Both the position numbers and the translations under genes were made by a program. Source: a virus (taxonomy: Duplodnaviria > Caudoviricetes). From it: a stretch of DNA of 64,000 nucleotides. The notes below the pieces were generated by a model. That model worked only from the letters and a program-made list of their open reading frames with translations. It was not told where the DNA came from and did not search any database. Positions 14,808 to 27,830 of the stretch are shown in pieces; the first letter of the stretch is position 1; the number at the start of each line of letters is the position of its first letter. The stretch spans positions 32,001 to 96,000 of the IMG/VR virus record IMGVR_UViG_3300028591_000083. One strand, written 5' to 3'.

Positions 14808-16268
14808 TCAAATAGAATTTTGCTTTGCATAAGCATCTTTAAGAGCTTGTTTTGTAGCAGCTCCGCATGAACCGTCTACATCAAGTCCATTCTTAAATTG
14901 GAATGCAAGTAAAGCCCCAAGAGTAATGATTTCAAATATTCCTGTAATATCGTCATCATAATACCCTAATTCAGAAAGATACCATTGCATCCACATAACT
15001 CCTTCTTTATCAGTTGATCCTTCTTTTACTGATTTTGTTGGTTCAGTATATGGACAATCAGGAGTAGGTGTTGGTGTAGGAGTTGGCGGAACTGGTTTTG
15101 GATATAGTTTTGGATTTTTCACGAAACCTAGGAATGTATATTTTCCAGAACCTCCCCAATGTCCGTCAGCATTAGTTCTCTTTGTTGTCCAGAAAGGTCT
15201 ACTTGCTTTATATCCTGATTCTGCGGTTACAATAGAACCATCATCAAACATCTGTTCAACAGTTGCAACATGACCAGCTCCGTCAGAGCTATCACCAGTT
15301 TTACCTTTTGCGAAACAAAGAATTGCTCCGTAGCTAGGTTCTTGTGAAACTTCAAGACCTTCTTTAATAGCTTGTGCATATACGTCTTCACCATTTGGAG
15401 GATAGTTGAGATATACAAATTTTCCGGCACCGAGGATCTCATTAAATCTATCAACTGCTAATCCAACGCAATTACTTAATGTGTTCAATCCTTCCTGAGT
15501 AGGTTTTCCAATAATACAGGTAGAATATCCGCCATTTCCGATTGTATTGTAATATGGATTTCCTTTTTCTGGAATTTGAAGCATTGGTGTAAATCCTTCT
15601 GGATATGGAATTAGCTTTGGTTCTGGTTTCGGCGGAGTAGGAGTTGGAGATGGTTTTGGATATCCATTTAATCCTTTAGCTTTAATTTTAGTAGGATAAT
15701 CTACATAACAATAGTCATGATCTACTTTATCATGAAAACCATTCATATTCTGTGCGCCAGTTTGCCAAAGACCATAAGCACCAGTATATGTTGGTTTTGA
15801 CGCCCATTGAGCTAACCAAATAGCATATCTTGTTTTAATATCATCTTCAACAATACAAGTTAGCCAACTAAGGTTTGTATATAGTCCTACCCAATATCCG
15901 GCACTTTCTACTTTTTGTAAGAATGCGCGGATCATAGCAGAAGCTAAAGATTTTCCAAGATTATAATGTTCATTATATTCAATATCTAAGAATACAGGAT
16001 AATCAAACTGTTTTCCTTTTAGTCTTTTTAGAAATTCATCTGCTTCTTTTTCTGCTGCTTCAACTGTAAGAGAAGACTTGTCTAAAAACCAATAAGCACC
16101 TACATTCATCCCTTTTGCTTTTGCATTCTTATAATGAGATTCATACATATTGTCAGTATAATTTCTCTGTCCGGCTTTAATAATGCAGAAGTCACAATCT
16201 ACTTTAGTCCAATCTACTTTTGGTTGACAGTAAGAAATGTCAACGCCCTCTTTCTTATAATCACTCAT
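14808..16268 (-). CDS. Modular endolysin: GH25 muramidase + CHAP + peptidoglycan-binding domain
   Basis: GVDISYCQ, LDIEY, VDHD (GH25); SNCV..GAGHVATVE..ESG (CHAP); WMQWYL..FQFKNGLDVDG (PGBD); Pro/Thr linkers. Confidence 0.9.
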   Translation of the reverse strand: MSDYKKEGVDISYCQPKVDWTKVDCDFCIIKAGQRNYTDNMYESHYKNAKAKGMNVGAYWFLDKSSLTVEAAEKEADEFLKRLKGKQFDYPVFLDIEYNEHYNLGKSLASAMIRAFLQKVESAGYWVGLYTNLSWLTCIVEDDIKTRYAIWLAQWASKPTYTGAYGLWQTGAQNMNGFHDKVDHDYCYVDYPTKIKAKGLNGYPKPSPTPTPPKPEPKLIPYPEGFTPMLQIPEKGNPYYNTIGNGGYSTCIIGKPTQEGLNTLSNCVGLAVDRFNEILGAGKFVYLNYPPNGEDVYAQAIKEGLEVSQEPSYGAILCFAKGKTGDSSDGAGHVATVEQMFDDGSIVTAESGYKASRPFWTTKRTNADGHWGGSGKYTFLGFVKNPKLYPKPVPPTPTPTPTPDCPYTEPTKSVKEGSTDKEGVMWMQWYLSELGYYDDDITGIFEIITLGALLAFQFKNGLDVDGSCGAATKQALKDAYAKQNSI

Positions 16269-16543
16269 AAAAAATTCACCCTTTCTGAAAATCATCAAGG
16301 CATACCATAATGAACAAAAGCTGTTCATTATATAGTGTTATGTGTAAATGCGTTATTTATTTTTTGTAATCAGTTATTCCTATATTTTGTAAAAACATAA
16401 ATATTTTACATATTTCGAGAATTTCTATAACTTGAAAATGTATTAAAAATATTAAATGCTGTATTATAAAAATAACATAAATATATACAATAATGGATGT
16501 AAAGCAATTTACAAATATTTTTGAAAGGTTGTGTTATTTTACT

Positions 16544-17137
16544 ATGAGATGCAAAGATGTTTTAAAATTATTGAGAATTACAAGACAAACACTTACAAAG
16601 TATGTAAAGAATGGAAACATAAAGGTAACTACGTTACCAAATGGACAATATGACTACGATGAAAAGAGTGTATATGATTTTCTAAATAAAGATGTGCCTA
16701 GAAAAACATATATATACGCAAGAGTGTCAACACAAAAACAAAAACACGATTTAGAAAATCAAATAAATTTACTAAAACAGTATTGTTTCTCTAAAGGATA
16801 TAGGGTTGATGGAATTTTTTCAGACGTTGCAAGCGGAATAAGTTTTGAAAGAAGATCTGATATGTTTACATTATTGGATGATATTGTTGATAATAAGGTT
16901 GAAAGGGTTGTAATATCATATAAAGATAGACTTTCAAGAGTTGGATTTGATCTTTTTTATTATTTATTTAAGAAACATAATTGTGAGATTGAAGTTATGA
17001 GTGAGGTCGGTTCACAAAAACTAGACAGCGAGGAAATATTTGAGGAGATTATCAGCTTGCTTCATTGCTACTCAATGAAACTTTATAGTAATCGAAGAGT
17101 TCAAAAAATCAAGGAAGTGTTGTCAGATGAAGAATGA
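16544..17137 (+). CDS. tnpA: IS607 serine recombinase (MerR-like HTH + resolvase)
   Basis: YIYARVSTQKQ, DVASG, DRLSRVGF. Confidence 0.92.
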   Translation: MRCKDVLKLLRITRQTLTKYVKNGNIKVTTLPNGQYDYDEKSVYDFLNKDVPRKTYIYARVSTQKQKHDLENQINLLKQYCFSKGYRVDGIFSDVASGISFERRSDMFTLLDDIVDNKVERVVISYKDRLSRVGFDLFYYLFKKHNCEIEVMSEVGSQKLDSEEIFEEIISLLHCYSMKLYSNRRVQKIKEVLSDEE

Positions 17138-18356
17138 AAGTGTTCTAAGTAGGGTTGAAAAGCATATTATAAAGAAGTCTGATAAATATTTCAACACACT
17201 CTTTGATTTCTGCAAAATGTCTAAGAATTTATATAATCACGCTAATTATCTAATTAGAAATGAATTTGTATCTAACGGAAAATGGTTGAGGTATAATGAT
17301 TTGGACAAGATATTAAAAAATGATTTAGAGTTTCCTGATTACAAGAATATGCCTACAGCACAATCAGCACAGCAAACACTTAGATTATTAGATAAGAACT
17401 GGAAATCGTTCTTTGCTGAGATAAAAGATTATAGTAAAAATAAGCAAAAATATTTAGGAAAACCGAAGATGCCAAAGTATAAGAAATCCACATATATTCT
17501 GATTGTAACAAATCAAGACTGTAAATTAAATAATAATACTATATTATTTCCGAGATGCTTTAACTCATTCAGTATTAAAACAAAGATAGTTGACAATGTT
17601 AATTTTGTGTCATTGCAACAAGTTAGACTTTTGCCGCATAAAGATAGGATTGTTGCTGAGATTGTATACAATATAAGAATGCCGAGAAAACTAGATGATA
17701 ACAATAGATATATCGGTATAGACATTGGAGTGAACAATCTTGCAACTGTTTCAAATAACTTTGGGGCAGAATCGTTCATCATAAATGGTAAGCCACTAAA
17801 ATCAATAAATCAAAAGTTTAACAAACTTACAAGCCATTATAAAGCAGTGTGCAAAAGAATGAATAATCAGTATTCATCAAACAGAATAAAAAGATTATTT
17901 AACAAAAGAAATGAAAAGATAGATGACTATATGCATAAGGCGAGTAGAAAGATAATTGATTTCTGTGAAGATAATGATATACACACAATTATCATAGGAA
18001 AAAATAAAGAGTGGAAACAGAAATGCGGTATGTCAAAGAAAAATAATCAAAATTTTGTTCAAATACCCTTCGCAAGATTCATTGATATGATTCAGTACAA
18101 AGCAGAAAATATTGGTATAGCAGTCATATTGACCGAAGAAAGCTATACGAGCGGTACAAGTTTCATTGATAATGAAGATCCAGTAAAAGAGTATTATAAC
18201 AAATCAAGAAGACTTCACAGAGGATTATTTAGATCAAATGACGGAATTCTTATAAATGCAGATTTGAATGGCGCTTATCAGATTATTAAGAAAGTAGTCC
18301 CAATAAAATGGGATAGAGGGTGCGCGTTACATCCATTTGTAGTAAATATAGTATAA
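17127..18356 (+). CDS. tnpB: RNA-guided RuvC nuclease TnpB
   Basis: GIDIGVNN, EESYTS, INADLNGA; overlaps tnpA stop. Confidence 0.92.
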   Translation: MKNESVLSRVEKHIIKKSDKYFNTLFDFCKMSKNLYNHANYLIRNEFVSNGKWLRYNDLDKILKNDLEFPDYKNMPTAQSAQQTLRLLDKNWKSFFAEIKDYSKNKQKYLGKPKMPKYKKSTYILIVTNQDCKLNNNTILFPRCFNSFSIKTKIVDNVNFVSLQQVRLLPHKDRIVAEIVYNIRMPRKLDDNNRYIGIDIGVNNLATVSNNFGAESFIINGKPLKSINQKFNKLTSHYKAVCKRMNNQYSSNRIKRLFNKRNEKIDDYMHKASRKIIDFCEDNDIHTIIIGKNKEWKQKCGMSKKNNQNFVQIPFARFIDMIQYKAENIGIAVILTEESYTSGTSFIDNEDPVKEYYNKSRRLHRGLFRSNDGILINADLNGAYQIIKKVVPIKWDRGCALHPFVVNIV

Positions 18357-18423
18357 AATTATATTGAACAATAAAGAAAATTTATTAAAATAATATATAA
18401 ATTTTTTAATGATTTCCATAACG

Positions 18424-18452
18424 TTGACATTCTTGTGATTTTGTGTTATAAT
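18424..18452 (+). promoter_or_regulatory. Sigma-A-type promoter
   Basis: TTGACA-17-TATAAT with TG extension. Confidence 0.8.
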
Positions 18453-18502: not shown

Positions 18503-18778
18503 ATGAGTAAACCAAAAGAAAACCACATTGTATTTAAGGACAAAAAAGGATATCTTTGCGCGGTAAGAAAAGACTTCTGTGATGAATATGAAGCAGAAAA
18601 AATTGCTAAAGAAAGACTTGTAAATGAATCAGTAATTCCATGTTTTGAATATGGATATATGTATCATGGATTCGGAAAAGATGTAGGATCTGATGAATAT
18701 GAAAATACTTGGTGGTTAGTAGGTGAACCTACTAATAATTCAATTCCTGTTTATGTTTTCCGCGAAAACCTAGATTAA
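18503..18778 (+). CDS. Hypothetical protein
   Basis: GAGGAGG SD, own promoter. Confidence 0.75.
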   Translation: MSKPKENHIVFKDKKGYLCAVRKDFCDEYEAEKIAKERLVNESVIPCFEYGYMYHGFGKDVGSDEYENTWWLVGEPTNNSIPVYVFRENLD

Positions 18779-18833
18779 ACTTTTTGATTTCTTCATCTAT
18801 GAAAACAGAATATATGAAAATATCACTGAGTTT

Positions 18834-19159
18834 AGTGTTAGGATAAGCACTGTTTAAAAGACAGTTATTGAGTCATATAACCCAGAAAGACGCTTTGTCG
18901 TGAGATATTAGTAGTCCTAGAATTCCTGTGTGGTTTAAGATTATATGACAATAGTCTGTGGAAACAAATTCCGTGAGGTTCTGAATATTTTTATTCATGT
19001 AAAATTGGCTTGTGAGTTAGCCCGATAACTACCAAACCAGCAAGTTGGTGGAAAGCTAACAAAACTGTCTTTTATATACTATCTAATTTCGGGAGAGAGG
19101 CAGAATGCCGTACCTAAGATCTTTAATTGATCTTTTGGTATGGCATTTCTGTTTTTTTT
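18834..19159 (+). ncRNA. Candidate structured non-coding RNA with terminator
   Basis: 12-bp closing stem 18855-18866/19063-19074, nested stem 18872-18880/18941-18949, several GNRA-capped hairpins, then hairpin 19100-19151 + T8. Confidence 0.6.
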
Positions 19160-19274
19160 GGAGAAACAAGTGCAACGTCATAACACTACTCTTGCAAAAG
19201 CAAAAGATGCTTTTTGATATCATTGATATAACAGGCGGCAATATAGAAATATCATTCTATATAAGGAAAACCTT

Positions 19275-21401
19275 TTATCTTTCTAAATCAGAAGGAGTAT
19301 CTTCTTCTACTTCAGGTTCTTTTGTTTTTAGTTCTTCTGTCTCAGTTTTTGTCAGTTCTAGTTCCTTATTTTCTTCAGGCTCTGCGTCCTCTGTCGGCTG
19401 CATTTGCATCGTCAGTGCGCGGTTGTCGCCGGTTTCAAGCGCGACTATTCTGTCATATATCTCCTGCCAGCTAGGACGATAAGGCTGATAAGCCTGCGAT
19501 ATTTTCCATGCTTGTTGGGTGCAAATCATTATATCAGTTAGTTTTTCACCTGCGCCATTGAAATAAAACGCACAGTATTTCGCATCATCAGCGATATTAA
19601 ACGTTTTTATCTGACGTGTGCCCTGCTCCACTACATTAAAAATAACATTTCTAATATTGTTACCTGAGTGCGGGAGTGCGCGGTAAAAGCTCAATGAAAA
19701 CTCCTGCTGAACGTCGCATATCATTGATATAACATACGTGCCTGCGGGTATGTTTACCGAAAAATCATCGGTAAACGACGCGGGAACGGTTGACGTTTCT
19801 GCGCTTTTTGGACACAAATTTTTCGCACCGCCATCAACCTGCTCTACAAGCGCCGCTCTATCCTCATCTGTCAGCACAGTTAACTCGCGGTTTGTTTTGG
19901 CGTAGGGTTGGAAGGTTTGGTCGGTGATGGAGGCGGGGCGGATCATTGGTTTGAAGACCATGTTATTAAATGTTACATTGCCACTAATGATAATTCGATA
20001 AGCAGCATAATGGGGCTCTGATAATTCAAAATTTACCCCATTTCCGACATCAACCGCTCCTGTAATTTGTGATAGAACTGCGCGGTATGTTGCGGTAGAT
20101 CCTCCAGCAGGGCAGCCAGTTAGCGCATATGATCCAGCGGGTAATATTGTTGTAGCTTCTGCGGATCCATCATAAAATTCAAATATTGCTGCGCTGTCTC
20201 CGCTGCTATGGGTTCCGTTAAGATTCATTGTTCCGGCATTCAGATCCCATGTGCAGGTCACACCATATCGTGTGATGGAACCACCTGCATGGGTCATCGG
20301 TAACATATTCTTCGCCCCAGCATTCGCAACTACTCCAATCTCTGTTTCCTGCCGCTGTTGATCTGTATATATTCCAGCACTTGTTACAGGATTTGTACTA
20401 CTTTGAGTAGGAGTTGAATCAAAAGTTAAAGTATCTTGTTTTCCGGCAAGAGCTGTATTTACTACTTTATTTTGAACTGGATTTGTTGAAGAAGAAGACA
20501 TTGCTGCATCAACAATAGTTTTATTTGCTCCTGATTGAATTCCATCTAGTTTTGTTTTATCAGAAGAAGTAAGTCCAGATTGAATTGTCGCCCATTGCGC
20601 AGAAGTAAAACTAGAATTATTTAAAGCATATTCAAAAGACCATGTATGAGTAGACCCATTATATTTATATCTATTATATAATGTATTTCCTGAACTGTCT
20701 GTACTTGTTACAAAAGCGTAATCATTATTTGTTATAATTCCTGAATATGCTTCTAGTTCCTCGACACTATCAAAAGTTCCAATAAAATATGCAGTATTTG
20801 TGGCAACAGAACTATTTACATATTCATATATTCCATCTGATGTTACAGCTTTTGTACTACTAGATGTAGGAGTTGAGTCCATTGTTTCTGCGGTTGCTGA
20901 AATTTTACCATCTGTTTCTGAAATTGCAGAAATATATTTTCCGGCTCCACCAACAGATTCAACATCAAGAGTTCCTAAAGCAGCAGCAACAGCTTTTCCA
21001 TCTACAGGAGAAGTACCAGAAGAATCATATGTACTACTAACATCATCTTGAGTTAAAGCAGTAACAGAATTACTTCCAATAGTCACTGTATTATTTTCTA
21101 CTTTTGCATCGGTAATTCCATATCCACTAATTGTTGTTGGTTTGCTTTTTAGTGAACTAAATGTTCCGTCAAAATCTGCAATTCCCATATCAGTTTTCAA
21201 AGTTGATGTAGTGACAATATCAGTTGTAACTGGATCATGTGCTCCTTGTGTTGTTTTTGTGAATTTTTTATTTGTTGTGTCGTAAGATACATTTGTTAGT
21301 GATCCTGCTTTATTTGTTTTCTTATCAAGTTCTGTTTTTACTTTTGTTGATAATTCAGATAAGGCATCAGCCCCTACAAATTTCTTTTCATCAAAATCCA
21401 T
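19275..21401 (-). CDS. Tail fibre / receptor-binding protein
   Basis: Ser/Thr-rich shaft with DSTPT.SST.PV repeats; two GAKNL..(F/Y)QPY beta-sandwich-type modules. Confidence 0.7.
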   Translation of the reverse strand: MDFDEKKFVGADALSELSTKVKTELDKKTNKAGSLTNVSYDTTNKKFTKTTQGAHDPVTTDIVTTSTLKTDMGIADFDGTFSSLKSKPTTISGYGITDAKVENNTVTIGSNSVTALTQDDVSSTYDSSGTSPVDGKAVAAALGTLDVESVGGAGKYISAISETDGKISATAETMDSTPTSSSTKAVTSDGIYEYVNSSVATNTAYFIGTFDSVEELEAYSGIITNNDYAFVTSTDSSGNTLYNRYKYNGSTHTWSFEYALNNSSFTSAQWATIQSGLTSSDKTKLDGIQSGANKTIVDAAMSSSSTNPVQNKVVNTALAGKQDTLTFDSTPTQSSTNPVTSAGIYTDQQRQETEIGVVANAGAKNMLPMTHAGGSITRYGVTCTWDLNAGTMNLNGTHSSGDSAAIFEFYDGSAEATTILPAGSYALTGCPAGGSTATYRAVLSQITGAVDVGNGVNFELSEPHYAAYRIIISGNVTFNNMVFKPMIRPASITDQTFQPYAKTNRELTVLTDEDRAALVEQVDGGAKNLCPKSAETSTVPASFTDDFSVNIPAGTYVISMICDVQQEFSLSFYRALPHSGNNIRNVIFNVVEQGTRQIKTFNIADDAKYCAFYFNGAGEKLTDIMICTQQAWKISQAYQPYRPSWQEIYDRIVALETGDNRALTMQMQPTEDAEPEENKELELTKTETEELKTKEPEVEEDTPSDLER

Positions 21402-21418
21402 ATTATACACCTACCTTT

Positions 21419-22241: not shown

Positions 22242-24092
22242 TTAACCTGTCCATACTATTTGAGTTGATGTTGGAGCACTTGTTGATGCTCCCCACGGAC
22301 TTCCTGTTATACTTCCTTCTGTTTTGTTTATTGTTATTGTTGCTAGTGATTGACAACCGCTAAACACACTACTTCCAATACTTGTTACAGAGCTTGGAAT
22401 TGAAATTGAAGAAAGTGAAGAACAACTTTGAAACGTATAGGTTCCAATATTCGTAACAGAACTTGGAATTATGAGTGAAGAAAGTGAAGAACAGAATTGG
22501 AATGTCTCTTTGTTAATACTCGTAATAGTGTTTGGAATTGTAATTGAAGAAAGTGAAGAACAATTACGGAACACACCATTTCCAATAAGTGTTACAGTTC
22601 TTGGAATTACGACTGAAGAAAGTGAAAAACAACTTTGAAACGTATAGGTTGCAATATATGTAGCAGAACTTGGAATCGTGATTGAAGAAAGTGATATACA
22701 ATTACTAAACGCACTATCTCCAATACTCGTAATAGTGTTTGGAATTGTAATTGAAGAAAGTGAAGAACAATAATAGAACACCCTGTTAGCAATAGTTGTT
22801 ACAGAATTTCCGATCTCAATTTTTTTTATACTGTTTAAGTAGCCAATATCTGGAGAACTGTATGAGTTATTATTATTTGTTAGGAGTGAAGATATTGATG
22901 AAGAAGATGATTGTAATACAAATCCACCAGTAATAACAGTAATAGCAATAACATAACTTCCAGTATTTGAATATATATGTTGTTCATTTTTATAGTCCAC
23001 ACTTGTAGATGTGAATGTACTATGAGCGCTCCCATCTCCCCAATCTATATCTAATTCAGAATTAGCATTTAGATATAATTTAAGCCATGGAGACAGTCTT
23101 CCTTCTGTTAGTTCAATATAAATTCTTGTTTTACCGTCAGAAGTAATATACATTTGTCCAATATCCAACTTACCATAACTTGATACATATGTTTTAGCAT
23201 CTGATAATGACCAGTTCCATCCTTGTCCTGTTAATCCTTCATGTGTTGGATTTTCAGGTAAATTATCTAATGCTGCAAACTCTTGTGCTGTATACGATCT
23301 TACAATAGTTCCATCATAATCATAGAAGTTTACATCTTTTCTTGTAGCAGAACCACCTCCGCCACTAGGAACATTAACAGTAACAGAATTATACAAAGTA
23401 GTATCAACAGTTCCGTTTTCAGTAACTTCTGATGGCATTGCAGTTTGTGCTACAAGTGCTCCACTATCTACAACTTTACCTTCATCTTCGGCAGTATAGG
23501 TATTAGGAACATTTACATCAACTTTACTATATCCATCAGCAGAATCATCAGAAGCATTATATTCTCCATTAGCAGTAATAGTTTTTTCAATAAGAGTTGC
23601 CGATCCGCCACCGCCACCGGGAACAATACTTGTATCATCAAAAATAAGTTCAATATCAAAAGTATTAGTGATAGTTGTCCAAATATCAGGTTCATCATTT
23701 GTAACAATACCATTCACTGTTTTAATACTAGATACAACACCATTTTCTTGTGTATTATTATGCGCGGTAAGAGCTTCATTGTCAAATATAGGAGTTATTT
23801 TTAGATAGAATGATTGTGGAATATCATATAGCTGAAATGTTGCATTTTGAGCGATTCCATCTTCTGTAAAAATAGAAGATGTATCAATATCAAGATTAAA
23901 ATCTTTGCACCATTCATTATCAAGAGTGAACATTTTAATATTGATAGTTGGTAGTTCGGCAACCATTTGTTTTGTCCATGTTCCGCCGAGAGTAAGCATA
24001 ATCGTTCCACAATTAGACGGCGCAGAAATCAAAATAGATTCAGGATATGTATTAGATCTATCAATACTAGAAATAATCGTTGTTTGTGCCAT
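22242..24092 (-). CDS. Tail-associated protein, paralog 2 (shared N-domain + PKD-like + BspA LRR)
   Basis: TITANGEY repeat, IDWGDG, ~8 FxxCSSLSSITIP repeats. Confidence 0.8.
   Translation of the reverse strand: MAQTTIISSIDRSNTYPESILISAPSNCGTIMLTLGGTWTKQMVAELPTINIKMFTLDNEWCKDFNLDIDTSSIFTEDGIAQNATFQLYDIPQSFYLKITPIFDNEALTAHNNTQENGVVSSIKTVNGIVTNDEPDIWTTITNTFDIELIFDDTSIVPGGGGGSATLIEKTITANGEYNASDDSADGYSKVDVNVPNTYTAEDEGKVVDSGALVAQTAMPSEVTENGTVDTTLYNSVTVNVPSGGGGSATRKDVNFYDYDGTIVRSYTAQEFAALDNLPENPTHEGLTGQGWNWSLSDAKTYVSSYGKLDIGQMYITSDGKTRIYIELTEGRLSPWLKLYLNANSELDIDWGDGSAHSTFTSTSVDYKNEQHIYSNTGSYVIAITVITGGFVLQSSSSSISSLLTNNNNSYSSPDIGYLNSIKKIEIGNSVTTIANRVFYYCSSLSSITIPNTITSIGDSAFSNCISLSSITIPSSATYIATYTFQSCFSLSSVVIPRTVTLIGNGVFRNCSSLSSITIPNTITSINKETFQFCSSLSSLIIPSSVTNIGTYTFQSCSSLSSISIPSSVTSIGSSVFSGCQSLATITINKTEGSITGSPWGASTSAPTSTQIVWTG
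22360..22790. repeat. 69-bp-period coding tandem repeat (BspA LRR)
   Basis: Recurring gaagaaagtgaagaaca-like units. Confidence 0.8.
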
Positions 24093-26306: not shown

Positions 26307-27542
26307 TTAAATTGTGCAAAATGTTGAAATAAATCCTGATCTCATTTGCACAAATTGTAACTTTTTTAGTGATATTTGTTTTTCAAACGTCTTATCAAAT
26401 AAATCCTTTATTTGAAAACATCCCCTTACTCTTAATGAATTTATGTAATATAATTTATTTTCAAATTTTACTAAATCATACCGTCTAAATCCAAAAACTT
26501 CGTAACTACATTTATTTCTTTTCTTTGTATTTCCTTTTAGAATTTTGTCTTTGAATATTTTTCTATTATGTCTGCGAATTTTCTTAAAATAATAAACAGT
26601 TCCGCAAGATTTTGCTCTAGGATTTCCTGAAATACATCTTGCATCAATATAATGATCCTTGTGTAGATTGTTTGTTATTCTACAATTTTTTGTAATGTAT
26701 CCAAATGTCATTGTTACATTTTCATAAATTTCTTTTAACTTTTCATAAAATGTCCAACGCATTATTCCCATAAATGCCGCATCCTTAAATGACATACCTC
26801 TTTTTATGTCTAATTTTATTTTTCCGCTATGATAATTTTTATGACAAGTTTCACAAAGAGTTATCAAATTACTAGGTGCATTTCCTCCTGTTTTTCGGCT
26901 TTCAATGTGATGAACATTTAAAATATTGTCTTTTGACTTTCCTTTACAGTGTTGGCACATATGGTTGTCTCGAAAAAGAACGTATTCACGAACATTCCAA
27001 AAATTAAGTTGATCTCCTTGTTGATATTCAACACCGGAAATTGCAGGATTTTTTATTTTTTGAATATCGAAACTAGCTGTCTCTGCTATAATTATTGAAA
27101 TAGGTAGAATTTTATGAATCATTTTAACAACTTCAAGATGTGTTTCAATCTTCTGTCTTATTGATGGTGCTAACCATCCCTTTTTCTTAGATTTAATTCT
27201 ATTTTTGAATCTTGGTTTCCTGTATCGTGTTTTCCTGTTTCTTCTTGATCGTCTCGCTTCTCTTCTTGTCGATAAATTTTCAACAATATCATTTCTTAAT
27301 TCAACATTTGCTTCAAACAACACATCTTCATTTGTTGTTGCAGAAATACCAATATGTTTACTTCCTGCATCAACTCCTAATGAGATATCTTGTTTATATC
27401 CTGTACTACCGTAAAGTAGTTGAATTGTGAATGGTACCTTCTTTACAACTTTAGCTTTTTTGTTCTTCAAAAGTTTACGTGCTTTTTGCGGTGAACATGG
27501 CATAAGAGGTTTTCCATATTTATTTAAAACATAGACTAACAT
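26307..27542 (-). CDS. iscB: IscB RNA-guided HNH/RuvC endonuclease
   Basis: PLMP, GVDAGSK, RREARRSRRNRK bridge helix, CQHC..HHI..GGN..NLITLCETCH, H..DA. Confidence 0.95.
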   Translation of the reverse strand: MLVYVLNKYGKPLMPCSPQKARKLLKNKKAKVVKKVPFTIQLLYGSTGYKQDISLGVDAGSKHIGISATTNEDVLFEANVELRNDIVENLSTRREARRSRRNRKTRYRKPRFKNRIKSKKKGWLAPSIRQKIETHLEVVKMIHKILPISIIIAETASFDIQKIKNPAISGVEYQQGDQLNFWNVREYVLFRDNHMCQHCKGKSKDNILNVHHIESRKTGGNAPSNLITLCETCHKNYHSGKIKLDIKRGMSFKDAAFMGIMRWTFYEKLKEIYENVTMTFGYITKNCRITNNLHKDHYIDARCISGNPRAKSCGTVYYFKKIRRHNRKIFKDKILKGNTKKRNKCSYEVFGFRRYDLVKFENKLYYINSLRVRGCFQIKDLFDKTFEKQISLKKLQFVQMRSGFISTFCTI

Positions 27543-27830
27543 TAAGTCTATCTCCTCTCAGAGTAATTTCTCCCACGACAATGTTGCAAATGGTTTTGTT
27601 GTTAGCAGCACTATCCCTGCAATTCAGAATTGTTTAACCACTAACCTTAGAGCGTAAGGCTGGAAGTACACCAAACGGTAACTATTTAACAAAAATAATT
27701 TTGTCATTCAAATGCAACGTAGTTTATGTTAAACATAAACTTAGTCTGATTATCAACTGCAAGAATTGCAGAACACAATATTTAATAAAATGTTTTAATT
27801 GTAATTATTATTTATTGTGTTATTGCTGAT
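27543..27830 (-). ncRNA. IscB omega-RNA (HEARO-like) scaffold
   Basis: Directly upstream of iscB; gttgat..agactaag..aactacgtt..ctctaagg..ttaaaca..aaacc..aacattgtcg motifs. Confidence 0.8.

What the first reader, a model, noticed from the sequence alone, without database searches (positions are those of the whole stretch)
18834..19159. Candidate novel multi-branched ncRNA rich in GNRA tetraloops
Seen: a ~500-bp gap with no credible ORF. A perfect 12-bp stem (taaaagacagtt 18855-18866 / aactgtctttta 19063-19074) closes ~200 nt. Inside are gtcatataa/ttatatgac, tgtc-GTGA-gata, tgt-GGAA-aca, cc-GTGA-gg, tgaata/tattca, ggct..agcc and accag-caag-ttggt. A hairpin precedes it (18834-18851) and a long terminator + T8 follows (19100-19159). 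GNRA loops read only on the + strand. I do not recognise it as tRNA, tmRNA, RNase P, a group I/II intron or a small ribozyme. Inference: a compact tertiary-folded phage RNA.
Basis: partly seen in the sequence, partly recalled or inferred. Interest (0 to 1): 0.75.

Follow-up and report, generated by a model that had tools for sequence, protein, structure and literature searches.

The report
New phage tRNA-array structured RNA
The flagged stretch is a real, strongly folded non-coding RNA from a family I could not find described. About 40 relatives turned up in uncultivated gut and rumen phages, nearly all sitting among the phages' tRNA genes, and what the RNA does is still unknown.

Summary
It matches no Rfam 15 family, tRNA or tmRNA.

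Pattern scans and a covariance model recovered about 40 homologues (32 distinct) in IMG/VR phage contigs, gut and rumen metagenomes and two MAG contigs. None was found in deposited phage genomes.

Compensatory changes support:
- the closing stem P1 and helices P2, P3, P4 and P5;
- a probable pseudoknot;
- a long-range two-pair contact, C18956-G19040 and U18957-A19039.

About 60 junction and loop nucleotides do not vary. The leading hairpin and the terminator are local to this phage.

In 32 of 38 homologue loci the RNA lies within 300 nt of a same-strand tRNA (226 same-strand tRNAs, none opposite). Here it has moved out of the array, behind a 91-aa gene with a consensus promoter.

It is not the guide RNA of the IS607 element upstream, which ends at about 18423.

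A sheep metatranscriptome contig covers exactly 18856-19095.

Four lineages also carry a Ro60 gene and a YrlA-like RNA in the same array, but the Ro60-binding motif is absent.

Function is unknown. My best guess is a stable scaffold or decoy in tRNA or RNA-surveillance biology.

The parts
18855..18866 (+). P1 5' strand (closing stem), pairs with 19063-19074
   Evidence: Perfect 12 bp here. 15 distinct P1 sequences among 21 full-length members are 100% canonical in the six inner pairs, against 41% when strands are swapped between sequences.
18867..18871 (+). J1/2, conserved A(A/U)UGA(G) junction
   Evidence: Conserved as AWUGAG in most members and AAAAGG in one clade.
18872..18949 (+). P2 domain: stem 18872-18880 / 18941-18949, enclosing the long-form insert (conserved CCCAGAAAGAC, then the GUGA-capped hairpin 18889-18916) and a small CC/GG hairpin 18925-18933
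   Evidence: All 9 P2 pairs show compensatory changes. Mean stem is 8.4 bp within a sequence against 3.1 across sequences. The insert is shared by six members. 18906 T>C in two runs turns a G.U into G-C.
18950..18976 (+). Invariant core AAUAGU-C-N-GUGGAAAC-AAAU(U)CC-GURA. C18956 and U18957 form the long-range contact P7 with G19040 and A19039.
   Evidence: P7 is canonical in 32 of 32 distinct sequences. Pair types are UA 20, AU 8, GC 4 for one pair and CG 29, GC 2, AU 1 for the other. The GURA loop varies only G/A.
18977..18980 (+). GGUU, proposed P6 with AACC 19035-19038
   Evidence: Predicted by RNAalifold. Nearly invariant, so untested by covariation. It would stack on P7.
18981..18998 (+). 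P3 hairpin, variable in length across the family
   Evidence: All 6 proximal pairs have compensatory changes. P3 is 19 to about 60 nt in homologues.
18999..19004 (+). Conserved GUAAAA junction
   Evidence: Near-invariant in alignments A3-A6.
19007..19032 (+). Pseudoknot. P4 is 19012-19019 (with G19014 bulged) / 19026-19032. S1 is 19007-19009 paired with 19020-19022 in the P4 loop.
   Evidence: 5 of 7 P4 pairs have compensatory changes and 93% of cells pair. For S1, 10 of 16 distinct sequences have 3/3 pairs in a fixed register, against 15% across sequences.
19033..19043 (+). Conserved single strand C-W-AACC-N-G-C, carrying the 3' sides of P6 and P7
19044..19060 (+). P5 hairpin: 4-bp covarying stem and near-invariant 9-nt loop GUGGAAAGC (19048-19056)
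   Evidence: 4 of 5 pairs have compensatory changes. 16 distinct stems, mean 4.2 bp within a sequence against 1.6 across. Loop variants keep UGGAA or UGAAA.
19063..19074 (+). P1 3' strand
   Evidence: See P1 5' strand. Similarity to the 88%-identical relative L083 ends at 19072.
19094..19159 (+). Long hairpin plus T8: intrinsic terminator of the ORF91-RNA transcript. Local context, not part of the family.
   Evidence: Folds in the MFE and centroid structures. Not conserved in homologues, which are followed by tRNAs.
18424..18452 (+). Consensus sigma-70 promoter (TTGACA, 17 nt, TG-n-TATAAT). Probable start of the transcript that carries ORF91 (18503-18778) and the RNA.
   Evidence: 12 of 12 hexamer matches with an extended -10. 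No equally good promoter lies between ORF91 and the RNA, and 18801-18842 is dispensable in a relative.

Best explanation
Window 18855-19074 (+) encodes a stable non-coding RNA of a family I could not find described. Members are about 175-320 nt and occur in large phages of gut and rumen bacteria.

Shown:
- The RNA folds into a closing stem P1, four further covarying helices (P2 to P5), a probable H-type pseudoknot and a covarying long-range contact (P7).
- These surround about 60 invariant junction and loop nucleotides.
- The family normally occupies a 'tRNA slot' inside phage tRNA arrays, on the tRNA strand, often with only a few nucleotides between it and the flanking tRNAs.

Inferred:
- The RNA is transcribed as part of the array precursor. 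The nucleases that mature the flanking tRNAs (RNase P at the next tRNA's 5' end, RNase Z or exonucleases at the previous tRNA's 3' end) would cut it out.
- P1 then protects both ends.
- In this phage the gene has left the array. It is probably made as the 3' part of the ORF91 transcript, from the consensus promoter at 18424 to the terminator at 19094-19159.

Inferred, weaker:
- All conservation sits in a structured core, and the variable parts are peripheral helices. The RNA therefore most likely works as a three-dimensional binding platform or decoy for a conserved partner from tRNA or RNA-surveillance biology. That partner could be a tRNA, a tRNA-binding enzyme, a nuclease or an RNA-quality-control protein.
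- It is unlikely to act as an antisense or cis-regulatory RNA.
For: Not a known family:
- Rfam 15 gives nothing at 18700-19300 at E up to 10, and nothing over five other members.
- ARAGORN finds no tRNA or tmRNA in the window.

Family:
- Pattern scans plus nhmmer and a covariance model give 27 + 14 matches, one per locus.

Structure:
- 89.3% of cells paired against 64.4% in shuffles (0 of 500 shuffles reach it) and 28-39% when partners are slid. 24 of 27 pairs have compensatory changes, on a MAFFT alignment not fitted to the structure.
- P1: 15 distinct helices, all canonical.
- P7: 32 of 32 canonical with three pair types at each position.
- Pseudoknot stem S1: 62% against 15%.

Strand:
- 38 G.U cells against 14 A.C cells.
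- All 226 neighbouring tRNAs lie on the same strand and none on the opposite strand.

Context:
- 32 of 38 loci have a same-strand tRNA within 300 nt.
- Gaps to flanking tRNAs are 0-17 nt in several loci.

Relocation:
- Relative L083 keeps the RNA (88% identical) in its tRNA array. That array is syntenic at 55-70% with genome positions 164-174 kb, where this phage's six tRNAs lie.

RNA evidence:
- A 240-nt sheep metatranscriptome contig equals 18856-19095 with no differences.
- A bovine metatranscriptome contig carries a variant copy (8 differences in 171 nt) directly after a tRNA-like 3' end.

Phage-specific:
- Only 1 of 151 genomes in the order of MAG G001 has a match, and that is the source MAG itself.
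Against: - No experiment or read-level data show the RNA's ends, abundance or stability. Contigs from RNA libraries can contain DNA and cannot define ends (caveats).
- No partner has been identified.
- The invariant nucleotides give no covariation. Several core pairings (GGUU/AACC, GGA/UCC versus CC-GURA-GG) and any T-loop reading therefore remain unresolved.
- Five contexts (this window, L174/L179, L176/L181) have no tRNA in the DNA held, so array embedding is usual but not obligatory.
- The - strand also folds well in isolation.
Confidence: 0.6

Rival explanations
1. It is a Y-RNA-type partner of a Ro60 (TROVE) protein. It would tether or gate Ro60, and perhaps host PNPase, as bacterial YrlA/YrlB and the phage phiLo Yrl RNAs do.
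For: - TROVE plus Ro60-vWA proteins are encoded in 8 of 34 RNA-bearing viral records (4 lineages), against 0 of 46 control large-phage contigs. Fisher p is about 5e-4, calculated as 8 of 33.
- In those lineages the order on one strand is this RNA, tRNAs, a YrlA-like RNA, then TROVE.
- Like Y RNAs, it has a long stem joining its 5' and 3' ends.
- Phage Ro60-Y RNA pairs are known (PMC4201824, PMC12135203).
Against: - The window phage (89% complete) and most complete RNA-bearing phages have no TROVE gene.
- The Ro60-contacting motif GNCGAAN0-1G is absent from 21 of 21 full-length members.
- P1 is free to vary in sequence.
- Rfam YrlA does not match the element, while separate sub-threshold YrlA-like matches lie next to TROVE in the same arrays.
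- Size is 175-320 nt against 80-130 nt.
- The control set was not matched for tRNA arrays.
Confidence: 0.12
2. It is a ribozyme that acts on the array transcript or on tRNAs, for example RNase-P-like or self-cleaving processing, or another tRNA-directed chemistry.
For: - About 60 invariant nucleotides in junctions, a pseudoknot and long-range contacts are typical of catalytic or ligand-binding RNAs.
- Its position between tRNAs has processing-type spacing.
- Hammerhead matches occur elsewhere in one of these phages, one of them at its gathering score.
Against: - No match to RNase P or to any self-cleaving ribozyme model.
- No RNase P P4-type architecture is evident. This is my reading of the consensus against the textbook RNase P core.
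- The metatranscriptome contig spans the whole element uncut.
Confidence: 0.08
3. It is a small analogue of ROOL and GOLLD: a phage RNA that self-assembles into an RNA-only multimer near tRNA islands.
For: Same niche, namely phages and prophages, often near tRNA islands, with no known protein partner (PMC12286853, PMC5737381). The fold is ornate and pseudoknotted.
Against: No sequence or model similarity to ROOL or GOLLD. It is three to four times smaller. Nothing here bears on oligomerisation.
Confidence: 0.08
4. It is a cis-acting 3'-UTR element of the 91-aa gene (stabiliser or regulator), or a DNA-level element such as a MITE or recombination site bounded by 12-bp inverted repeats.
For: In this phage it lies between ORF91 and a terminator. 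It is bounded by perfect inverted repeats and has evidently changed place in the genome.
Against: - ORF91 homologues in eight loci lack the element.
- Homologues of the element sit among tRNAs, not after ORF91.
- It is single-copy in the genome.
- Internal helices covary, with an excess of G.U on one strand.
- The inverted repeats vary freely in sequence between members, unlike transposon ends.
Confidence: 0.03
5. It is the guide (omega) RNA or another part of the IS607 tnpA-tnpB element 0.5 kb upstream.
For: A TnpB gene (17127-18356) lies nearby on the same strand, and another RNA-guided nuclease (IscB with a HEARO RNA) is in the window.
Against: - In 60 TnpB homologue loci compared, conserved DNA ends about 70-95 nt after tnpB, and none of the 69 fetched loci contains the element.
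- A related DNA contig lacks the IS and joins about 16427 to 18424 (read from a 30-letter loose end), so the IS ends at about 18423, 430 nt before the RNA.
- Homologues of the RNA have no adjacent tnpB.
Confidence: 0.01

Closest known systems
ROOL and GOLLD RNAs (Rfam RF03087, RF01998)
   Same: Orphan, elaborately folded RNAs of phages and prophages, often beside or within tRNA islands and possibly co-transcribed with tRNAs. Function unknown (PMC5737381, PMC12286853).
   Different: No sequence or covariance-model similarity. About 190-250 nt against about 580 to over 800 nt. Different helices and conserved motifs. Oligomerisation untested.
Bacterial and phage Y RNAs (YrlA/YrlB, Rfam RF02553; phiLo Yrl1/2)
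   Same: Closing stem made of the 5' and 3' ends. Occurs in phage tRNA arrays. In four lineages it shares the array with a Ro60/TROVE gene.
   Different: Lacks the GNCGAAN0-1G motif and a YrlA-type tRNA-like module. Larger. Most carriers have no Ro60. A separate YrlA-like RNA sits next to Ro60 in the same arrays.
Stable non-tRNA RNAs of the phage T4 tRNA cluster (species 1 and 2, rnaC/rnaD). Recalled from my own knowledge, not checked here.
   Same: Small stable RNAs encoded among phage tRNA genes, released from the tRNA precursor. Function unknown for decades.
   Different: T4 and other deposited phages gave no match to this family.
Interdigitated T-loop modules of the RNase P S-domain, T-box Stem I and the ribosomal L1 stalk (PMC4810234)
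   Same: Only a lead. The family has two near-invariant UGGAA pentamers (GUGGAAAC in the core, G-UGGAAAG-C in the P5 loop). Each has U at position 1 and A at position 5, as I recall T-loops having. The family also lives among tRNAs.
   Different: No structural test was possible. The core copy can alternatively pair GGA with UCC. No homology to RNase P or T-box models.
TnpB/IscB omega RNAs (HEARO, Rfam RF02033)
   Same: Structured RNA near a transposon-encoded nuclease gene in this window.
   Different: Lies outside the IS607 element and is absent from TnpB homologue loci. The HEARO match is elsewhere, at 27563-27757.

Membership tests
Any Rfam 15 family | Covariance-model match at or near the gathering score | tested here: not met
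   Whole window at gathering threshold: only HEARO, at 27563-27757. For 18700-19300 at E up to 10 the best is 25.7 bits against a cut-off of 90. Five other members at E up to 5: nothing overlaps the element.
tRNA / tmRNA | Cloverleaf or tmRNA detected by ARAGORN | tested here: not met
   No gene in the window. In homologue loci ARAGORN calls the flanking tRNAs but never the element.
YrlA / Y RNA | Encoded within about 4 kb of a Ro60 (TROVE) gene on the same strand | tested here: not met
   No TROVE in the window's genome, by Pfam model or by phage TROVE protein. Met in only 4 of the family's lineages: within about 1-3 kb in L152, L161/L148 and L163, and about 7.5 kb away in L146.
YrlA / Y RNA | GNCGAAN0-1G Ro60-contact motif near the 5' end (PMC4201824) | tested here: not met
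   Absent from 21 of 21 full-length members.
YrlA / Y RNA | tRNA-like D/T module recognised by RF02553 | tested here: not met
   No YrlA match on the element. Sub-threshold YrlA matches fall on other RNAs beside TROVE.
YrlA / Y RNA | Binds Ro60 | not testable with these tools
   Needs EMSA or pull-down.
TnpB omega RNA (IS607) | Overlaps or abuts the 3' end of tnpB and ends at the transposon's right end | tested here: not met
   The IS ends at about 18423, shown by the empty site in run X3 (read from a 30-letter loose end). The element starts at 18855.
TnpB omega RNA (IS607) | Conserved downstream of homologous tnpB genes | tested here: not met
   No similarity in 69 TnpB loci. Conserved DNA ends about 70-95 nt after tnpB in the 60 loci compared.
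ROOL / GOLLD | Match to RF03087 or RF01998; length of about 580 nt or more | tested here: not met
   No match at permissive E-values. Length 175-317 nt.
ROOL / GOLLD | Phage or prophage location near tRNA islands | tested here: met
   32 of 38 loci have a same-strand tRNA within 300 nt. This is a shared niche, not homology.
   CC-GURA-GG: the loop varies G/A only but the stem is invariant. The GUGA hairpin 18896-18907 covaries but exists only in the window/L083 subgroup. GGAA is not a hairpin loop.
T-loop / tRNA-elbow-docking module | Two interdigitated pentanucleotide T-loops seen in 3D | not testable with these tools
   Only the sequence signature (two UGGAA pentamers) is seen.

The most novel reading that the evidence does not exclude
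The RNA is a new functional class that acts directly on tRNAs or tRNA-handling machinery during infection. One version is an elbow-docking RNA built from two T-loops. Another is a new ribozyme. A third is a decoy that protects phage or host tRNAs from tRNA-targeting defence nucleases. In some phages it would work alongside a Ro60-YrlA module.
Probability: 0.15. Interest if true: 0.85.

Novelty: new variant of a known kind. Interest (0 to 1): 0.62.

Why it matters
Phage tRNA arrays are increasingly seen as counter-defence and translation-takeover modules. The non-tRNA RNAs hidden in them (GOLLD, ROOL, the T4 stable RNAs) remain unexplained.

This family adds a compact and unusually well-constrained example. 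It is about 200 nt long, has some 60 invariant nucleotides, a pseudoknot and a covarying long-range contact. That size suits chemical probing, crystallography or cryo-EM, and pull-downs.

Its partial linkage to phage Ro60 and YrlA-like genes gives a concrete, testable lead into RNA surveillance during infection. Its tRNA-slot position suggests a general route by which phages produce stable RNAs, using the host's tRNA-processing enzymes.

If it binds tRNA or is catalytic, it would be a new RNA function. If not, it is still a new entry for RNA family databases and for annotating large gut and rumen phages.

Tried and rejected
- TnpB omega-RNA idea: rejected.
- Finding homologues by synteny. ORF91 has 7 relatives, but their loci lack the element. 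The 91-aa protein found nothing in IMG/VR. The 711-aa neighbour gave two distant loci of no use.
- Deposited phage genomes: no match with three different members as query.
- First IMG/VR scan with a 20-mer from 18920-18939: nothing.
- Genome-collection patterns gave mostly chance hits. Only L084 and L102 were real.
A 3'-half model was used, so P1 and P2 were assessed on the MAFFT alignment and by script.
- The pseudoknot stem S1 with free offsets did not differ from the cross-sequence control (3.8 against 3.3). It separated only in a fixed register.
- My early idea that CUAC pairs with the P5 loop GUGG was dropped once P4 (GU[G]AGUUA / UAACUAC) proved to covary.
- RNAalifold's GU/GC extension of P6 is not supported. 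The G varies to C, U or A in step with C18956, not with the GURA segment.
- TROVE in the window's own genome: none.
- 150 other genomes of the order of MAG G001: none.
- Earlier notes of this scan hold no look-alike apart from this same stretch.
- Literature searches found no description of this family.
- Parts of the stretch without cover in the laid runs are not evidence of anything.

Full report
**What is there**

The window is positions 32001-96000 of a 207-kb IMG/VR phage record, judged 89% complete. The 336-nt stretch folds better than shuffles on the + strand (-95.3 kcal/mol, z = -3.97), and so does the - strand.

Local gene order:
- endolysin, 14808-16328 (-);
- an IS607-type pair: serine recombinase tnpA 16493-17137 and tnpB 17127-18356 (+);
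- a perfect sigma-70 promoter at 18424-18452;
- a 91-aa ORF, 18503-18778 (+);
- the element;
- a long hairpin plus T8;
- a convergent 711-aa gene, 19275-21410 (-).

**Not a known RNA**

At gathering thresholds Rfam 15 finds only a HEARO RNA at 27563-27757, next to an IscB gene. At E up to 10 nothing credible covers 18700-19300. ARAGORN finds no tRNA or tmRNA in the window.

**Not part of the IS607 element**

I fetched 69 TnpB homologue loci. In the 60 compared, conserved DNA stops about 70-95 nt after tnpB, and none of the 69 contains the element.

A bovine-gut DNA contig from a close relative lacks the IS. Its loose end matches window 16398-16427 and continues at 18424. The IS therefore spans about 16428-18423 and is polymorphic.

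**Finding the family**

Synteny through ORF91 failed. Its homologues lie in related phages whose similarity covers the ORF alone.

The run index showed that many ruminant samples hold only a fraction of the 901-nt query. Laying four runs was informative:
- A 240-nt sheep metatranscriptome contig equals 18856-19095 exactly.
- A bovine metatranscriptome contig carries 18854-19024 with 8 differences, directly preceded by a tRNA-like 3' end.

Exact-pattern scans on blocks conserved among these copies found true homologues in metagenomes, IMG/VR and two MAG contigs. A covariance model of the 3' half (R1) confirmed 27 matches. A further scan added 14 more. There is one copy per locus, and 32 distinct sequences were used for pair counts.

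None was found in 50,697 deposited phage records. Among 151 genomes of the order of MAG G001, only that MAG matched.

**Structure**

On a MAFFT alignment of 17 full-length members, not fitted to any structure, RNAalifold predicted P2, P3, P4 and P5. Counting those 27 pairs gave:
- 89.3% of cells paired, against 64.4% in shuffles (0 of 500 reach it) and 28-39% when partners are slid;
- 24 pairs with changes on both sides.

Other helices:
- **P1** could not be put in register by MAFFT. By script, its six inner pairs are canonical in all 21 sequences (15 distinct helices), against 41% when strands are swapped between sequences.
- **P4** pairs GU[G]AGUUA (19012-19019) with UAACUAC (19026-19032). 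The three nucleotides before it pair with the start of its loop (19007-19009 with 19020-19022), giving an H-type pseudoknot. In a fixed register 10 of 16 distinct sequences have 3/3 pairs, against 15% across sequences.
- **P7** emerged from the added members. The two 'variable' letters in GUC-N-GUGG and AACC-N-GC covary perfectly. U18957-A19039 is UA 20, AU 8, GC 4. C18956-G19040 is CG 29, GC 2, AU 1. Both are canonical in 32 of 32.

His accag/ttggt is replaced by P5: GUUG 19044-19047 / UAAC 19057-19060 around the loop GUGGAAAGC.

Still unresolved, because the nucleotides never vary:
- GGUU/AACC (P6);
- the choice between GGA/UCC and CC-GURA-GG.

G.U pairs outnumber A.C by 38 to 14, which fits the + strand.

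**Context**

Of 38 homologue loci, 32 have a same-strand tRNA within 300 nt and 34 within 2 kb. All 226 tRNAs in these loci are on the RNA's strand. In several loci P1 starts 0-2 nt after a tRNA and ends 3-17 nt before the next.

This phage has six tRNAs, about 120 kb from the RNA. Relative L083 keeps the RNA (88% identical, matching 18849-19072 only) inside a tRNA array. That array is otherwise syntenic at 55-70% with this distant region. The P1-bounded unit has therefore moved. It is also far better conserved than its old neighbours.

**The Ro60 lead**

Pfam on flanking genes showed TROVE/Ro60-vWA proteins near the RNA in three loci. Across whole records:
- 8 of 34 RNA-bearing viral records (four lineages) encode TROVE;
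- 0 of 46 control large-phage contigs do. Fisher p is about 5e-4, calculated as 8 of 33. The controls were not matched for tRNA arrays.

In those lineages a separate, sub-threshold YrlA-like RNA lies next to TROVE, and the order on one strand is this RNA, tRNAs, YrlA-like RNA, TROVE.

Against a Y-RNA role:
- the window phage and most complete carriers lack TROVE;
- the Ro60-contact motif of bacterial Y RNAs (PMC4201824) is absent from all 21 full-length members;
- P1 varies freely in sequence.

I therefore treat 'Y-RNA-like' as a rival, not the classification.

**How it probably works**

- *Shown:* a conserved, pseudoknotted RNA family on the tRNA strand of phage tRNA arrays, with RNA-library contigs that cover it.
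- *Inferred from anatomy:* co-transcription with the tRNAs, release by the enzymes that mature the neighbouring tRNAs, and P1 sealing the ends. In this phage, transcription would run from the ORF91 promoter to the terminator.
- *Inferred, weaker:* conservation is concentrated in a tertiary core and the variable parts are peripheral. This points to a binding platform or decoy for a conserved tRNA or RNA-surveillance partner.
- *A lead only:* two near-invariant UGGAA pentamers resemble T-loops, the motif that RNase P, T-boxes and the L1 stalk use to dock the tRNA elbow (PMC4810234).

**Comparison and novelty**

The nearest known things share the niche, not the sequence:
- ROOL and GOLLD (PMC5737381, PMC12286853);
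- the T4 tRNA-cluster stable RNAs (my own knowledge);
- phage Y RNAs (PMC4201824, PMC12135203).

Literature searches found no description of this family. Earlier notes of this scan report other, unrelated orphan RNAs in phage tRNA arrays, and one Y-RNA/Ro60 case. The only look-alike of this sequence in those notes is this same stretch.

**Verdict**

This is a genuine new RNA family in a known kind of niche. The fold is well supported. The function is open.

Noticed in passing
window 16428-18423: IS607-type element (serine-recombinase tnpA 16493-17137, tnpB 17127-18356) that is polymorphic. A closely related bovine-gut DNA contig joins about 16427 directly to 18424, an empty site. The right end abuts the -35 box of a perfect sigma-70 promoter at 18424-18452.
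   Followed up: partly
window 26307-27757 (-): IscB-type gene (RRXRR plus HNH, 26307-27542) with its HEARO/omega RNA immediately upstream (27563-27757, 89.8 bits). This is a second RNA-guided nuclease module in the same phage.
   Followed up: no
window 18503-18778 (+): A 91-aa ORF with a strong ribosome-binding site and no Pfam or PHROG match. It has 56-74% identical relatives in gut and rumen phage contigs, where it ends a small operon next to the endolysin gene. In this phage that operon's place is taken by the IS607 element.
   Followed up: partly
L152 2117-4131; L148 6974-8880; L164 2-116 with G006 252609-253067: Phage tRNA arrays that end in a sub-threshold YrlA-like RNA followed by a TROVE/Ro60-vWA gene. 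These look like Ro60-Y RNA modules of uncultivated gut phages.
   Followed up: partly
L152 8770-8833 and 9863-9938 (-): Two type II hammerhead ribozyme matches (38.8 and 32.7 bits, cut-off 37) a few kb from the tRNA array of one carrier phage.
   Followed up: no
P3 of L084, L088, L102, L151, L152 (e.g. L084 6174-6213): In one subgroup P3 is an extended arm with conserved flanks (ACGGC ... UGAGAAGG) around a variable hairpin. In two members that hairpin has a 7-nt UUGUAAA loop resembling an anticodon loop, but the loop is not conserved.
   Followed up: partly
L150 4330-4365: A contig without tRNAs that carries only the 3' block (AACCAAACCAGC ... GUGGAAAGC hairpin), preceded by a GUAGUCUGUGGAAC-like stretch. 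It may be a very divergent or partial relative. It falls below the model's threshold.
   Followed up: no
window 22242-24092 (-): 616-aa protein with BspA-type leucine-rich repeats, next to unannotated large genes. Probably a host-recognition or surface-binding protein.
   Followed up: no
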